Shown here: piece by piece, positions 50,339 through 52,999 of the stretch
How the letters are laid out: every line of letters begins with the position of its first letter
How positions within the stretch are numbered: the first letter of the stretch is position 1
Source: an uncultured Fibrobacteraceae bacterium
GTDB taxonomy: Bacteria > Krumholzibacteriota > Krumholzibacteriia > LZORAL124-64-63
Assembly (NCBI GenBank): GCA_964524645.1
Contig: CAZGEC010000001.1
Coordinates: 179,994-243,993 of the forward strand
Direction of reading: 5' to 3'
Length of the DNA: 64,000 bases
The notes under the pieces: model-generated
Databases searched by the model: none
Told to the model about the DNA's origin: nothing
Seen by the model: the letters and a program-made list of their open reading frames with translations, nothing else
Program-made: the position numbers and the translations under genes

Positions 50339-52999
50339 ATGCAATTCAGGACATTCTGCATCCTGCTGATGAGCTGCCTGCTGTTAGCTCTCGCAGCGGC
50401 CACGGCGCAGGCGCGCCCGCCCATACGCCGCGCCTTCTTCAACGTCTATCCTTCGGCCGAGGGCACCCGCCTGGACGACCTGCCCAGCAACGCCGGGCAC
50501 TGCGGGGTCTGCCACTTCGACTTCGACGGTGGCGGCACGCGCAATCCCTACGGGCTGACGGTGCAGGTGGCCCTGAGCAGCGGGAACTACGGCACGGACG
50601 AGGAGGCCATCCTCTCCCTCGACGGCCAGGACGCGGACGCGGACGGCTTCAGCAACGGCGTGGAGATCACCGATACCATCGACTTCACCAACACCCCCAC
50701 CTTTCCCGGCTTGACGAGCGGCAACGTGTCGAACGTGTTGAACGTGGATCCCGCGGACCTGACGGGCCATCTCACGCCCAGCGGCAGCCTCGACACGACA
50801 CCACCTACGGTCCTCGTTACCGCGCCCGACGGCGGCGAGATCTACCCGGCCAATACCCTGCAGAACGTCAGCTGGACCGCCAGCGACGCCAGCGGGATCT
50901 CCCACGTGGATCTCTACCTCTCCGACGACGGGGGCCTGAACTTCAAGCCCGTGGCCAAGGGCCTGGCGGATACGGGCACTTACAGCTGGTTCGTTCCCAA
51001 CCGACCCGGCTCCCAGAGCCTGCTGCAGGTCGTGGCGTGGGATAACGCCGGCAACGACGGGAGCGACGTCAGCAACGGCAGCTTCGACATCGAGCCCGTG
51101 AGCGGGGGGACCGTGCCGACGACCTTGCGGGACTTCGACCTGCCGGGCAGCCAGCCCCTCGAGGCGGGGATCCTGGACGATCCCGGTGTCACCTGCGTCA
51201 CCTGCCACGGGAATTACAGCACGGCCGTGGAGCCCTGGTACAACTGGCGCGGCAGCATGATGGCGAACGCCCTGCGCGATCCCCTGTACCTGGCCACGCT
51301 GGCCGTGGCGGAGCAGGACGCGCCGTCGGTGGGCGATCTCTGCCTGCGCTGCCACACTCCGGGCGGCTGGCTCGAGGGGCGCTCGCCGGACACCAGCGCC
51401 GGCCTGATGAACGCCAAGGACCGGCACAGCGTGCAGTGCGACTTCTGCCACCGCCAGGTCGATCCGCACTACGTCGAGGGCGTCAGCCCGGCCGCCGACC
51501 TGGCGATCCTGGACGCGTTGGCCGCTCTGCCACTCGCCACCGCCAACGGACAGTACGTCACCGACCCGGCACCTGTGCGGCGCGGCCCCTACGCGGACGC
51601 CCAGGCCGATCACCAGTTCCTGGAATCACCGTTTCACCGGGAAGGGGACATCTGCGGCACCTGCCACGACGTGAGCAATCCCGTGTTCGTGCAGGGCGCC
51701 TCGCCCTCCGTCTACGAGGTGCAGGCGCTCGACAGCCCCCACCCCGACGGCGACCTGCGCAACATGTTCCCGATCGAGCGCACTTTCAGCGAGTGGTCGG
51801 CCAGCACTTACGCCGCGACCGGGGTCTACGCGCCCCAGTTCGCCGGCAACAAGCCCGACGGCATCGTCTCCACCTGCCAGGACTGCCACATGCCCGACGT
51901 GTCGGGCAAGGGCGCGGACGGGGGGCCCAACCGCTCGGACCTGCCGCTGCACGACCTGACCGGGGGGAATCACTTCGTGCCCGATATTCTGCCCTCGTTC
52001 TACGCGTCCGAAGTGGATCCGACCCAGCTGGCCGCCGGGAAGAGCCGCGCCATCAGCATGCTGACCCGGGCAGCGACCCTGGAGCTGACGAGCAGCCCGG
52101 TGCAGGGTCAGCCGGCGGTCACCGTCCGGGTGATCAACGAGACGGGTCACAAGCTGCCCTCCGGCTATCCCGAGGGACGTCGCATCTGGCTGAACGTCAA
52201 GGCCTACGACGCTGCCACCAGCCTGGTCTACGAATCGGGTGCCTACGATCCCGGCACGGGGGAGCTGACCCACGACGAGGACGCCAAGATCTACCACGTC
52301 GAGCCCGGCATCTCGTCGCGCCTGGCGACGGCCCTGGGCGTGCCCGCCGGACCCTCCTTCCACTTCGCCCTGAACGACTCGACCTATCTGGACAACCGAA
52401 TTCCGCCCCGGGGCTACACCAATGCCGGCTTCGCGGCCGTGCAGGCTGCGCCGGCGGGCTACGCTTACGCCGACGGCCAGTACTGGGACGACACGGTCTA
52501 CGTCCTGCCGATCGAGGCCCGTTCGGTGGAGGTCACCCTGTACTACCAGTCCACGTCCAAGGAGTACGTGGAGTTCCTGCGCGATGAGAACGTGACCAAC
52601 ACCCTGGGTCAGGAGCTGCACGACGCCTGGGTGGCCCAAGGCCGGGCGGCCCCGGTGGTCATGGCCACGGCCAGCCTCGGTCTGGATCTCAGCGATGTGC
52701 GGGCGGGAGGTATCCCGCAGGCGGTGAACCGCCTGGGTGCGGCCGTGCCGAATCCTTTCAACCCGCAGACCAGGATCGAGTACGAGCTGGCGGCCACCGG
52801 CCCGACCAGCCTGCGAATCTTCGATGCGACCGGAAGGCTGGTGCGAACGCTGGCGGAGGGCCTGCGGCCGGCCGGCACGCATGTGGCGATCTGGGACGGC
52901 CGTAACGACGCGGGCAGGGTCCTCGCCTCCGGCGTCTACTTCTGCCGGCTCGAGGCGCCTGGATTCTTGACCACCCGCAAGCTGATGTTGCTCAAGTGA
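50339..52999 (+). CDS. Secreted multihaem c-type cytochrome (6 CxxCH) with C-terminal FlgD-Ig/T9SS-type sorting domain
   Basis: Signal peptide [25 protein letters not shown] with GGAGG 7 nt upstream. Haem motifs CGVCH, CVTCH, CLRCH, CDFCH, CGTCH, CQDCH. The last 83 aa ([36 protein letters not shown]...[36 protein letters not shown]) form the CTD. Confidence 0.8.
   Translation: [886 protein letters not shown]

What the first reader, a model, noticed from the sequence alone, without database searches (positions are those of the whole stretch)
50339..52999. Six-haem c-type cytochrome predicted to be exported to the cell surface via a T9SS-type CTD
It has six CxxCH motifs, an N-terminal signal peptide, a ~200-aa Ig/FN3-like region and the same CTD as the adhesins. 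It is divergently transcribed from the giant adhesin operon.

A surface-displayed multihaem cytochrome is the hallmark of extracellular electron transfer, here apparently delivered by T9SS-type sorting rather than the usual T2SS or porin-cytochrome route. T9SS-sorted EET cytochromes are, to my knowledge, barely explored outside a few Bacteroidota/Ignavibacteria reports.
Basis: partly seen in the sequence, partly recalled or inferred. Interest (0 to 1): 0.65.

Follow-up and report, generated by a model that had tools for sequence, protein, structure and literature searches.

The report
Surface-sorted six-haem cytochrome, unknown function
This gene encodes a real six-haem protein carrying a cell-surface export tag; it belongs to a large, strongly conserved and so far unstudied family of uncultured sediment and soil bacteria, whose chemistry is unknown and which shows no sign of the usual wiring for breathing minerals.

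Summary
ORF 50339-52999 (+) encodes an 886-aa protein with a signal peptide, six CxxCH motifs and the same C-terminal sorting domain as two other proteins in the window. It is divergent from the adhesin operon.

The tail meets the type-A T9SS tests I could run, and a PorV/PorQ-family gene lies 7 kb away. The same six-haem protein occurs in at least 584 species genomes. FCB-type MAGs carry the T9SS-type tail. Planctomycetota and Verrucomicrobiota carry other C-terminal modules instead, which argues for an extracytoplasmic role.

The EET reading is unproven. In 85 loci there is no conserved porin, partner cytochrome or any other neighbour. The family is unusually conserved, and the host encodes an aerobic respiratory chain. 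My best call is a surface redox ecto-enzyme or electron-exchange module of unknown substrate.

The parts
50155..50235 (+). AT-rich island in the divergent intergenic region. It contains a weak sigma-70-like pair, TTGATC-18 nt-TAAGAT, and is the probable promoter of the cytochrome gene (inferred).
   Evidence: Sequence read. The promoter scanner found nothing at its threshold. A Fur-like half-site here is not conserved in orthologues.
50328..50334 (+). Shine-Dalgarno-like GGAGGTG, ending 4 nt upstream of the ATG.
   Evidence: Sequence.
50339..52999 (+). CDS of the 886-aa hexahaem c-type cytochrome (stop codon included).
   Evidence: GC3 is 0.90 in this frame. More than 2000 homologues were found.
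50339..50413 (+). Sec-type signal peptide (aa 1-25), with predicted cleavage at AQA|RPP.
   Evidence: Sequence features plus conservation in A1. No predictor was run.
50417..50788 (+). N-terminal mono-haem domain (aa 27-150). It has CxxCH at aa 55-59 preceded by an invariant His54, and a DxDxDG calcium-site-like motif.
   Evidence: Weak matches to NF041762 GEGP dihaem protein (aa 32-113) and Pfam Temptin_C. Mean pairwise identity is 60%.
50789..51124 (+). Big_7 / FN3-like Ig spacer domain (aa 151-262).
51125..52072 (+). Five-haem helical 'cap' of the PHC-type core (aa 263-578), with CxxCH at aa 286, 335, 367, 439 and 513. Met308 is the likely axial ligand of one haem.
52073..52708 (+). Ig-like beta-sandwich 'stem' of the PHC-type core (aa 579-790). 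It carries the loop N600[10 protein letters not shown]610-P-E-G-R-R615 and the motif D685-N-R-I-P-P-R-G692.
   Evidence: Alignments to 5ZE8 and to MccSep 9WT8 place Tyr610 at the Sec325 position. Invariance is shown.
52709..52747 (+). Poorly conserved, low-confidence linker (aa 791-803). It is the candidate site for CTD removal.
   Evidence: 32% mean identity. pLDDT is below 50 at aa 789-792. Cleavage is inferred from T9SS biology, not shown.
52748..52996 (+). C-terminal sorting domain (aa 804-886), of type-A T9SS CTD / FlgD_ig type, ending ...[22 protein letters not shown].
53004..53027 (+). 10-bp GC-rich hairpin directly after the stop codon. It is a probable terminator shared with the convergent pterin-4a-carbinolamine dehydratase gene.
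   Evidence: RNAfold. The terminator scanner did not call it because it has no T-tract.
41772..43100 (-). PorV/PorQ-family outer-membrane beta-barrel protein with an internal FlgD_ig-like domain. It is the only T9SS-type machinery component seen in the window.
   Evidence: NF033709 scores 119.6, above the cutoff of 90. PF13860 scores 30.8.
43110..49985 (-). Giant Ig-repeat adhesin-like protein carrying the same CTD. It is another predicted cargo and is divergent from the cytochrome gene.
16601..19489 (-). FG-GAP repeat protein carrying the same CTD. It is the third predicted cargo in the window.

Best explanation
The gene encodes a hexahaem c-type cytochrome that works outside the periplasm, on or beyond the outer membrane.

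Proposed pathway:
1. Sec export, indicated by the signal peptide.
2. Periplasmic attachment of six haems, indicated by six invariant CxxCH motifs.
3. Recognition of the folded C-terminal Ig-like domain by a T9SS-type machinery. This step is inferred from the CTD tests and from the PorV/PorQ-family gene in the window.
4. Transfer across the outer membrane, followed by either glycolipid anchoring or release (inferred).

Functional unit. The functional unit is a 'large' member of the penta-haem cytochrome (PHC) fold family, which also contains T. tepidum c552 and MccSep/ExtKL. It has a five-haem helical cap sitting on an Ig-like stem. A sixth haem domain is held on an FN3-like spacer at the N-terminus and probably serves as the electron entry or exit point.

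Likely active site. In MccSep the active site lies at the cap-stem interface, next to haem 2. In this family the same place is lined by an almost invariant loop, G-H-K-L-P-(S/T)-G-Y-P-E-G-R-R. A Tyr (His in a sub-clade) sits where MccSep has its catalytic selenocysteine, and there is no Cys haem ligand. One electron-transfer haem has Met where c552 and MccSep have His, which suggests a higher working potential.

Conclusion. I conclude that it is a conserved surface redox ecto-enzyme or electron-exchange module with its own chemistry, not Sec/Cys-dependent polysulfide reduction. The substrate, and the route by which electrons reach or leave the protein, are unknown. Respiratory EET is one possibility, not the demonstrated function.
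For: Cytochrome: six CxxCH motifs against a shuffle expectation of 0.003, all invariant in 59 and in 78 homologues.

Fold family:
- Foldseek to 5ZE8: E 1e-11.
- Core profile against PDB sequences: 5ZE8 E 3e-11; MccSep 9WT8 E 0.04-0.23, through the stem loop only.
- NCBIfam ExtKL model matches aa 505-633.
- Literature links c552, ExtKL/MccSep, the cable-bacteria PHCs and PtdA as one fold family.

Active-site argument:
- phmmer aligns MccSep 'NHAGHSIPDGXPTPNRL' with '[17 protein letters not shown]', so Sec325 corresponds to Tyr610.
- G603, H604, G609 and W617 are invariant. K605 is present in 76 of 78 sequences, E612 in 75, R614 in 77 and R615 in 74. Position 610 is Tyr in 63, His in 7 and Phe in 3 of 78.
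- There is no Cys outside the CxxCH motifs.

Sorting:
- G832 and K881 are at least 90% conserved. They match the two functional CTD motifs described in PMC11285876.
- A PorV/PorQ-family gene is in the window, and three proteins in the window share the CTD.

Comparative evidence for an extracytoplasmic role:
- At least 584 species-representative genomes encode a relative.
- In the 80 best loci, FCB-type MAGs carry Nmono-Big-cap-stem-CTD. Planctomycetota and Verrucomicrobiota (including Pontiella) MAGs carry the same Nmono-Big-cap-stem with a dockerin-like tail or an '...RFYR' tail instead.
- More distant cap-stem proteins end in MYXO-/PEP-CTERM-like, 'YLPLVxR' or lipoprotein signals.

Enzyme-like conservation: mean pairwise identity is 67% in the cap and 63% in the stem, against 47% in the CTD and 32% in the linker.
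Against: - No localisation, haem-content or activity data exist for any member. All members come from MAGs and are annotated 'hypothetical'.
- Only one T9SS-type component was seen. SprA/Sov, PorU and PorKLMN were not looked for outside the 64-kb window.
- Pfam's own T9SS tail model is below its cutoff (16.5 against 27). FlgD_ig scores higher, so the tail could be a lineage-specific variant with a different fate.
- Position 610 is Phe, Trp, Val or Asp in a few members, so it is not an obligatory ligand or catalytic residue.
- Five conserved potential axial ligands (M308, H425, H538, H604, H675) could make all five core haems six-coordinate. In that case the protein would be a plain electron carrier.
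The model has moderate confidence in parts of the cap (pLDDT 40-70 at aa 370-540).
- There is no evident electron route across the outer membrane.
Confidence: 0.55

Rival explanations
1. The protein is the terminal outer-surface cytochrome of a respiratory extracellular electron transfer chain. The T9SS places it on the cell surface, where it passes respiratory electrons to minerals, humics or partner cells, or takes them up.
For: - A surface sorting tag is present, and lineage-specific sorting tags occur in orthologues.
- The six haems include a spacer-mounted N-terminal haem.
- The fold family has extracellular relatives in the literature: the archaeal cytochrome nanowire AvECN is reported to be related to c552, and PtdA is encoded next to a porin.
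- There is a weak profile match to the Gram-positive surface reductase OcwA (6I5B, E 0.0098).
- Surveys list secreted multihaem proteins in Krumholzibacteriota as candidate EET proteins.
Against: - No porin-cytochrome conduit or periplasmic multihaem partner is encoded nearby. This ORF is the only one in the 64-kb window with more than one CxxCH.
- Only 5 of 85 orthologous loci have another ORF with three or more CxxCH within 8 kb, and no neighbour family recurs except generic two-component systems.
- The MtrC/MtrF domain model is below its cutoff.
- The family keeps 50-68% identity across the FCB- and PVC-type lineages labelled in the records. Surface EET cytochromes are reported to evolve fast (PMC12977616 abstract).
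- The invariant loop at the MccSep active-site position suggests catalysis rather than simple wiring.
- The host has a bc complex and a caa3 oxidase.
Confidence: 0.25
2. The protein is a periplasmic, or periplasm-facing, redox enzyme like its solved relatives. The FlgD_ig-type tail would be a structural or binding Ig domain, or a tag that docks the protein to a PorV-like barrel without full export.
For: - MccSep is periplasmic, and 97% of its homologues are predicted to be periplasmic.
- Pfam Por_Secre_tail is below its cutoff, while FlgD_ig is above.
- The PorV/PorQ-like protein in the window itself carries an internal FlgD_ig-like domain. This domain is therefore not always a cleaved terminal signal in this organism.
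- Some cap-stem family members have no C-terminal extension at all (about 510-535 aa).
Against: - The tail is strictly C-terminal, follows a variable linker, and ends in the K-x-x-L-L-K-type motif typical of type-A CTDs.
- NCBI's type-A model is above its cutoff.
- The same tail sits on a 2291-aa adhesin-like protein and on an FG-GAP protein.
- In the top 80 loci, the Planctomycetota, Verrucomicrobiota and Pontiella MAGs lack this tail; most carry a dockerin-like or '...RFYR' module in its place (a few end shortly after the stem), and more distant relatives end in MYXO-CTERM-like signals. That pattern is hard to explain for a soluble periplasmic enzyme.
Confidence: 0.12
3. The protein is an extracellular peroxide- or oxygen-handling haem enzyme (peroxidase or MauG-like), or a redox partner for secreted oxidative polymer-degrading enzymes. 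In this reading it uses extracellular donors and acceptors only, so it needs no trans-membrane electron conduit.
For: - This would explain the absence of any conduit or partner.
- It would also explain why the protein uses the same sorting tags as secreted hydrolases in polymer-degrading phyla.
- The Tyr/His at position 610 with Arg-Arg, Lys and Glu nearby resembles distal pockets of haem enzymes. This is my inference from general knowledge of NrfA, MauG and peroxidase sites, not a test.
- A di-haem cytochrome c peroxidase/MauG-like gene lies directly adjacent in 3 of 85 loci (L039, L046, L054).
- One Eisenbacteria locus sits beside a rubrerythrin / superoxide reductase / PerR / flavodiiron cluster (L001).
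Against: - The adjacency signals are rare (3 of 85 and 1 of 85) and could be chance.
- Orthologues occur in MAGs labelled with the names of anaerobic lineages (Pontiella, Latescibacteria).
- No open-coordination haem has been demonstrated.
- No sequence similarity to known peroxidases was detected.
Confidence: 0.08

Closest known systems
Penta-haem cytochrome c552 of Thermochromatium tepidum (PDB 5ZE8)
   Same: - The core fold is the same: five c-type haems in a helical cap plus a C-terminal Ig-like beta-sandwich.
- Haem motifs 1-3 and 5 align in the profile search, and the shared stem-loop motif is x-H-x-x-P-T/S-G-x-P-x-R-x-x-(W/Y)-L.
   Different: - c552 is a low-potential, soluble, 385-residue protein with no assigned function. 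It has no N-terminal haem domain, no FN3 spacer and no sorting tail.
- It has His where this family has Met308, and Ala where this family has Tyr610.
- The core here is about 140 aa larger, including an insertion of about 45 aa between haems 4 and 5 that carries invariant residues such as E485 and W486.
MccSep / ExtKL (GSU2937-2936) of Geobacter sulfurreducens, a multihaem selenoprotein polysulfide reductase (PDB 9WT8; bioRxiv 10.1101/2025.11.18.688581)
   Same: - The architecture is the same: a cap with five haems plus an Ig-like stem.
- The stem loop that carries the catalytic residue aligns residue by residue: G-H-x-(I/L)-P-x-G-[U/Y]-P.
- The NCBIfam ExtKL model matches aa 505-633.
- By analogy, the active site would lie at the cap-stem interface next to haem 2.
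   Different: - MccSep is periplasmic and homotetrameric. It depends on Sec325 plus a Cys239 distal ligand on haem 2.
- The protein here has Tyr at the Sec position, no free Cys and no in-frame UGA, so both defining catalytic features fail.
- Sequence similarity outside the loop is not significant (E 0.04-0.23).
- The extra domains and the sorting tail are absent from MccSep.
Type-A T9SS cargo C-terminal domains (TIGR04183; e.g. RgpB, and the mirolase CTD 8QB1)
   Same: - It is an extreme C-terminal, ~85-aa, seven-strand Ig-like sandwich.
- The HMM scores above its cutoff.
- The Gly in the beta3-beta4 loop (D829..G832) and the Lys in the last strand (K881) are conserved.
   Different: - The host is not a Bacteroidota member. 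It is a high-GC, FCB-type uncultured lineage.
- The tail scores better with Pfam FlgD_ig than with Pfam Por_Secre_tail.
- Export, cleavage and anchoring are untested.
- I found no T9SS cargo that is a multihaem cytochrome described in the searchable literature.
MtrC/OmcA-type outer-surface decahaem cytochromes and porin-cytochrome conduits (Shewanella Mtr, Geobacter Pcc/Ext)
   Same: - Both are multihaem c-type cytochromes predicted to be on the cell surface.
- There is a weak local match to the MtrC/MtrF domain II/IV model over haems 2-4 (28.9 bits).
   Different: - The match is below the family cutoff of 30.
- There are six haems rather than ten, and the fold is different (PHC).
- There is no lipoprotein anchor.
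- There is no adjacent porin or periplasmic decahaem partner, here or in 85 orthologous loci.

Membership tests
Multihaem c-type cytochrome | Several CxxCH haem-attachment motifs in a Sec-exported protein | tested here: met
   There are six CxxCH motifs, against a shuffle expectation of 0.003. They are invariant in alignments A1 and A2. The N-terminal signal peptide was identified by sequence inspection.
Multihaem c-type cytochrome | Covalent haem actually bound, with axial ligands defined | not testable with these tools
   Candidate ligands were inferred only from conservation: M308, H425, H538, H604, H675 and H54.
PHC fold family (c552 / MccSep-ExtKL type penta-haem cytochromes) | Helical cap with five CxxCH motifs followed by an Ig-like beta-sandwich stem | tested here: met
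PHC fold family (c552 / MccSep-ExtKL type penta-haem cytochromes) | Conserved stem loop G-H-x-x-P-x-G ... R-x-x-(W/L) | tested here: met
   Alignments to 5ZE8 and 9WT8 show the loop. G603, H604, G609 and W617 are invariant in 78 sequences.
MccSep polysulfide reductase family | Sec or Cys at the catalytic loop position (U325) | tested here: not met
   The position is Tyr610. Across the family it is Tyr in 63, His in 7 and Phe in 3 of 78 sequences, and never Cys. The ORF has no in-frame UGA.
MccSep polysulfide reductase family | Cys distal ligand on haem 2 (C239) | tested here: not met
   There is no Cys outside the CxxCH motifs other than C7 and C13 (signal peptide) and C869 (CTD).
MccSep polysulfide reductase family | Periplasmic location | not testable with these tools
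   The sorting tail argues against a periplasmic location, but there are no localisation data.
T9SS type-A CTD cargo | Match to the type-A sorting-domain model at the extreme C-terminus | tested here: inconclusive
   NCBIfam TIGR04183 scores 28.4, above its cutoff of 23. Pfam PF18962 scores 16.5, below its cutoff of 27, while PF13860 FlgD_ig scores 44.4, above 27.
T9SS type-A CTD cargo | Seven-strand Ig-like sandwich resembling solved CTDs | tested here: met
T9SS type-A CTD cargo | Conserved Gly at the beta3-beta4 loop and Lys in the C-terminal strand (motifs of PMC11285876) | tested here: met
   D829 is invariant. G832 and K881 are at least 90% conserved in A1. The motif definitions were read.
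T9SS type-A CTD cargo | T9SS machinery encoded by the same genome (SprA/Sov, PorU, PorV, PorK-N) | tested here: inconclusive
   A PorV/PorQ-family gene was found in the window (NF033709, 119.6 against a cutoff of 90). No other component lies within the 64 kb, and the rest of the genome is not available.
T9SS type-A CTD cargo | CTD-dependent export, cleavage and surface attachment | not testable with these tools
   This needs an experiment.
MtrC/OmcA outer-surface decahaem cytochromes | MtrC/MtrF domain II/IV signature, ten haems, and a lipoprotein anchor | tested here: not met
   PF22113 scores 28.9, below its cutoff of 30. There are six haems. There is no lipobox at the predicted cleavage site.
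Porin-cytochrome EET conduit | Co-encoded outer-membrane porin and periplasmic multihaem cytochrome | tested here: not met
   Neighbour clustering of 85 loci found no recurrent partner. Another ORF with three or more CxxCH lies within 8 kb in only 5 of 85 loci, and there is none in the window.
FlgD flagellar hook cap | FlgD N-terminal region and a flagellar gene context | tested here: not met
   Only the Ig-like domain matches (aa 814-873). There are no flagellar genes nearby.

The most novel reading that the evidence does not exclude
The family is a new class of extracellular haem enzyme. It would be a PHC-fold cytochrome in which a Tyr (or His) on the stem loop, together with a Lys/Glu/Arg-Arg pocket, has replaced the Sec/Cys chemistry of MccSep. 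Uncultured FCB- and PVC-type polymer degraders would export it with whatever surface-sorting tag their lineage uses. It would carry out an as yet undescribed extracellular redox reaction, for example on sulfur species, oxyanions, peroxide or organic matter, without a dedicated outer-membrane electron conduit.
Probability: 0.25. Interest if true: 0.8.

Novelty: new variant of a known kind. Interest (0 to 1): 0.58.

Why it matters
If the location and a catalytic role are confirmed, this would be the first described multihaem cytochrome cargo of a T9SS-type pathway. It would also give a function to a protein family found in at least 584 species-level genomes of largely uncultured phyla (record labels include Krumholzibacteriia, Eisenbacteria, Latescibacterota, Gemmatimonadetes, Ignavibacteria, Planctomycetota and Verrucomicrobiota/Pontiella). 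These groups are usually modelled as plain heterotrophs.

The finding offers a concrete, testable handle on extracellular redox chemistry in those organisms. It also provides a natural experiment: the same redox module carries interchangeable sorting tags, which shows how different secretion systems handle a haem-loaded cargo.

It warns against scoring such proteins automatically as EET markers in metagenome surveys. The fold relatives with an assigned location are periplasmic, and no conduit is co-encoded.

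Tried and rejected
1. MtrC/OmcA membership. The Pfam match is below its cutoff and the fold search points elsewhere. Rejected.

2. MccSep-type polysulfide reductase. The Sec and Cys features are absent. Rejected as a mechanism. The fold relationship is kept.

3. Conserved operon partner. I ran an all-against-all BLAST clustering of ORFs within +/-8 kb in 85 loci. Only generic two-component regulators recur, in 21 loci, with no porin or cytochrome. The four annotated contexts are all different. 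The adhesin adjacency is specific to this genome.

4. Iron regulation. The AT-rich promoter island has three overlapping 12-of-19 matches to the Fur-box consensus. The half-site occurs upstream of only 5 of 65 orthologues, against 2.9% in background sequence. Not pursued.

5. Promoter and terminator scanners gave nothing useful. A GC hairpin after the stop codon was found by folding instead.

6. Named or cultured members. Two cluster look-ups returned only MAG 'hypothetical protein', 'cytochrome c553', 'PKD repeat' and 'MopE-related/MYXO-CTERM' labels.

7. Source record of the window. The protein is in the collection on a 429-kb NCBI/JGI contig, but the contig look-ups found nothing.

9. Model coordinates are not exposed to scripts. 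Haem-ligand distances could therefore not be measured.

I replaced it with local HMMs built from A1.

Full report
**1. What is there**

The ORF 50339-52999 (+) exists exactly as reported and encodes 886 aa. Its GC3 of 0.90 marks it as the coding frame in this 68% GC window. It contains six CxxCH motifs, at aa 55, 286, 335, 367, 439 and 513, where shuffling predicts 0.003. Every Cys outside the signal peptide is in such a motif, except C869 in the tail.

The N-terminus, [28 protein letters not shown], is a typical Sec signal. A GGAGGTG ribosome-binding site ends 4 nt before the ATG, and a 10-bp GC hairpin follows the stop codon. The next gene is a convergent pterin-4a-carbinolamine dehydratase, so the cytochrome gene stands alone. 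Upstream, on the other strand, is the 2291-aa adhesin-like gene.

**2. Domain anatomy**

| Region (aa) | Feature | Evidence |
|---|---|---|
| 156-220 | Big_7 Ig domain | Pfam, |
| 285-374 | Marginal multihaem signatures: MtrC/MtrF II-IV 28.9 (cutoff 30); Cytochrome_C554 21.5 (cutoff 20.8) | Pfam, |
| 814-871 | FlgD_ig, 44.4 bits (cutoff 27) | Pfam, |
| 804-883 | TIGR04183 'T9SS type A sorting domain', 28.4 (cutoff 23) | NCBIfam, |
| 505-633 | Weak match to the ExtKL selenoprotein model | NCBIfam, |
| 32-113 | Weak match to a GEGP dihaem protein model | NCBIfam, |

An AlphaFold2 model built on 59 homologues has mean pLDDT 78.5 and pTM 0.72. It gives the following layout:
- a small helical mono-haem domain (aa 27-150);
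- an FN3-like sandwich (aa 151-262);
- a mostly helical five-haem region (aa 263-578);
- a ~200-aa beta-sandwich (aa 579-790);
- a disordered linker;
- a seven-strand C-terminal sandwich (aa 798-884).

**3. What the core is**

MccSep is the ExtKL selenoprotein of Geobacter. A 2025 preprint shows it to be a periplasmic homotetrameric polysulfide reductase. It has a five-haem helical cap and an Ig-like stem. The active site is at haem 2, which is ligated by His and Cys239, and Sec325 reaches in from a stem loop. Other papers group c552, ExtKL, Gsu2801 and the cable-bacteria proteins into a 'PHC' family. One of them cites Baquero et al. for a link between c552 and the archaeal cytochrome nanowire AvECN. 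Another paper describes PtdA, a c552 homologue encoded next to a porin.

The residue-level alignment is informative. MccSep reads 'VKVEMTNHAGHSIPDGXPTPNRLVLSV' and the protein here reads '[27 protein letters not shown]'. The selenocysteine position is therefore Tyr610.

- In 59 close homologues, the residues H604, K605, P607, G609, Y610, P611, E612, G613, R614 and R615 are all invariant.
- In 78 members down to 36% identity, G603, H604, G609 and W617 stay invariant. K605, E612, R614 and R615 are at least 95% conserved. Position 610 is Tyr in 63, His in 7 and Phe in 3.
- A second invariant stem motif is D685-N-R-I-P-P-R-G692.
- There is no free Cys, so neither MccSep catalytic feature is present.
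- Met308 is Met in 72 and His in 4 of 78 members. It aligns with His in both c552 ('GSMHAK') and MccSep ('QSIHAR'). This suggests a His-to-Met axial ligand change, and hence a higher-potential haem. That step is an inference.
- Conserved H425, H538, H604 and H675 (the last in 71 of 78) could supply the remaining ligands. Whether haem 2 is open, Tyr-ligated or His-ligated cannot be settled without coordinates, which I could not access.

**4. The tail and the T9SS question**

- The model's tail has seven strands.
- A 2024 structural paper defines two functionally required CTD features: a Gly at the start of strand 4 (the beta3-beta4 loop) and a Lys within the last strand. Both are conserved here, in 'IFDATGRLV' (D829 invariant, G832 at least 90%) and in 'RKLMLLK' (K881 at least 90%).
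- An HMM of this tail finds two more proteins in the window, the adhesin and an FG-GAP protein.
- The gene next to the adhesin (41772-43100, -) scores 119.6 against the PorV/PorQ family model, whose cutoff is 90.
- According to that same paper, T9SSs may exist in several non-Bacteroidota FCB phyla.
- I did not find SprA, PorU or PorK-N in the 64 kb, and I could not examine the rest of the genome.

**5. Distribution and the key comparative result**

The protein has more than 2000 homologues. The best 120 are nearly all about 885 aa long (two are shorter fragments) and 58-89% identical (most 58-68%) to the window protein. Where named, they come from Latescibacteria, Krumholzibacteriia and Eiseniibacteriota MAGs, labelled 'T9SS type A sorting domain-containing' or 'FlgD Ig-like'. 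The core alone hits 2775 cluster representatives, 526 of them at E below 1e-30.

I classified the ORFs of the 80 best loci with local domain HMMs:
- The loci labelled Krumholzibacteriia, Eisenbacteria, Latescibacterota, Gemmatimonadetes and Ignavibacteria, where the ORF is complete, have (Nmono-)Big-cap-stem-CTD, or cap-stem-CTD in the Ignavibacteria MAG.
- Planctomycetota and Phycisphaerae MAGs have the same six-haem Nmono-Big-cap-stem. Many of them end in a dockerin-like DxDxDG tail.
- Verrucomicrobiota and Pontiella MAGs have the same body with a ~90-aa domain ending '...RFYR(F/I/V)'.

More distant cap-stem proteins end in MYXO-/PEP-CTERM-like 'LLLALRRRR' tails, in '(L/I)YLP...R/K'-type tails, or start with lipoprotein Cys signals. 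Some have no extension.

The same redox body is thus joined to whatever C-terminal tail the lineage uses; several of these (dockerin-like, MYXO-/PEP-CTERM-like, lipoprotein) look like surface-sorting devices. This is the strongest available evidence that the family works outside the periplasm.

Within the family, the cap (67%), stem (63%) and N-terminal haem domain (60%) are much better conserved than the CTD (47%) and the linker (32%).

**6. Context**

Four annotated contexts share nothing with each other or with this window. Clustering all ORFs within +/-8 kb in 85 loci found no recurrent neighbour except generic two-component regulators, in 21 loci. Only 5 loci have another ORF with three or more CxxCH. 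Three loci have an adjacent di-haem peroxidase/MauG-like gene. In the window, this ORF is the only multihaem ORF.

About 4-10 kb downstream lies an aerobic respiratory cluster: Rieske protein, a cytochrome b-c fusion, CtaG, COX3, COX1 and a COX2-cytochrome c fusion.

**7. Interpretation**

*Shown:* a real hexahaem cytochrome gene; homology of its core to c552-type PHCs; absence of MccSep's Sec/Cys chemistry; a tail that passes the available type-A CTD tests; one T9SS-type component nearby; lineage-specific tag swapping; and no conserved partner.

*Inferred:* export by a T9SS-type route; a surface or extracellular location; an active site at the cap-stem interface using the Tyr/Arg-rich loop; and a higher-potential His/Met haem.

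*Unknown:* the substrate, the direction of electron flow, and how electrons would cross the outer membrane.

The respiratory-EET reading remains possible, and the literature places extracellular or porin-linked proteins in or near the fold family. It lacks the expected conduit, however. It also fits poorly with the high conservation and with the enzyme-like invariant loop.

I searched the literature library for T9SS together with multihaem or multi-heme cytochromes and found no paper. Surveys only list secreted multihaem proteins of these phyla as candidate EET proteins.

I therefore class this as a new variant of a known kind: a PHC cytochrome with a new domain architecture, a new predicted location and a different active-site residue set. 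It is of moderate to good interest.

Noticed in passing
window 37130-49985 (-): One co-directional gene string encodes a 2291-aa Ig-repeat adhesin with CTD, a PorV/PorQ-family barrel carrying an internal FlgD_ig-like domain, a 1007-aa TPR protein, and ExbB, ExbD, ExbD. An outer-membrane PorV-like barrel and a proton-motive-force motor encoded with a giant CTD cargo look like a dedicated secretion or surface-motility module.
   Followed up: partly
window 56914-63192 (-): An aerobic respiratory gene cluster: COX2 fused to cytochrome c, COX1, COX3, the caa3 assembly factor CtaG, a Rieske protein, and a cytochrome b fused to a c-type domain. The host is therefore an aerobe or facultative aerobe.
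   Followed up: partly
window 16601-19489 (-): A 962-aa FG-GAP repeat protein ends in the same CTD as the cytochrome and the adhesin (CTD HMM score 62.7). It is the third predicted cargo in 64 kb.
   Followed up: partly
window 13637-15529 (-): A second ExbB gene sits next to a protein with a TonB_C domain. Nearby, a 1000-aa AsmA-like protein lies at 5709-8711 (-). The window is rich in envelope-transport genes.
   Followed up: no
window 50168-50214: An AT-rich island in the divergent promoter region has three overlapping 12-of-19 matches to the Fur-box consensus, including an exact ATCATTATC. The half-site is not conserved upstream of orthologues: 5 of 65, against 2.9% in background sequence.
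   Followed up: yes
L060 7308-13251; the Eisenbacteria chromosome CP070702.1 (P0013 and P0099): The family occurs as tandem or dispersed paralogues in some Eisenbacteria. In L060 a six-haem copy is directly followed by a five-haem copy that lacks the N-terminal haem domain.
   Followed up: no
L039 10593-12149; L046 4084-5277; L054 6527-7753: A di-haem cytochrome c peroxidase/MauG-like gene lies directly adjacent to the cytochrome, on the same strand, in 3 of 85 loci; two of the three records are labelled Planctomycetota/Planctomycetales, the third 'uncultured bacterium'.
   Followed up: no
L001 2350-6559: In a complete Eisenbacteria genome the orthologue lies beside an oxidative-stress cluster (rubredoxin/flavin reductase, superoxide reductase, rubrerythrin, a Fur/PerR-family regulator and a flavodiiron protein) and a 2-oxoacid:ferredoxin oxidoreductase.
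   Followed up: no
P0174 (1152 aa); P0130, P0168, P0169 (1300-1700 aa): Distant family members fuse the cap-stem core to very different extensions. One has 14 CxxCH motifs, and several have Cys-rich extensions with 49-69 extra Cys.
   Followed up: no
L044, L052, L059, L062, L063, L067, L069, L075 (C-termini of the orthologues): The orthologues labelled Verrucomicrobiota or Pontiella (and two mislabelled 'Bifidobacteri-' MAGs) end in a ~90-aa domain with a conserved '...G-x-RFYR(F/I/V)-x-x-x-G-x-P' terminus. It may be a PVC-specific sorting or anchoring domain. I did not identify it.
   Followed up: no
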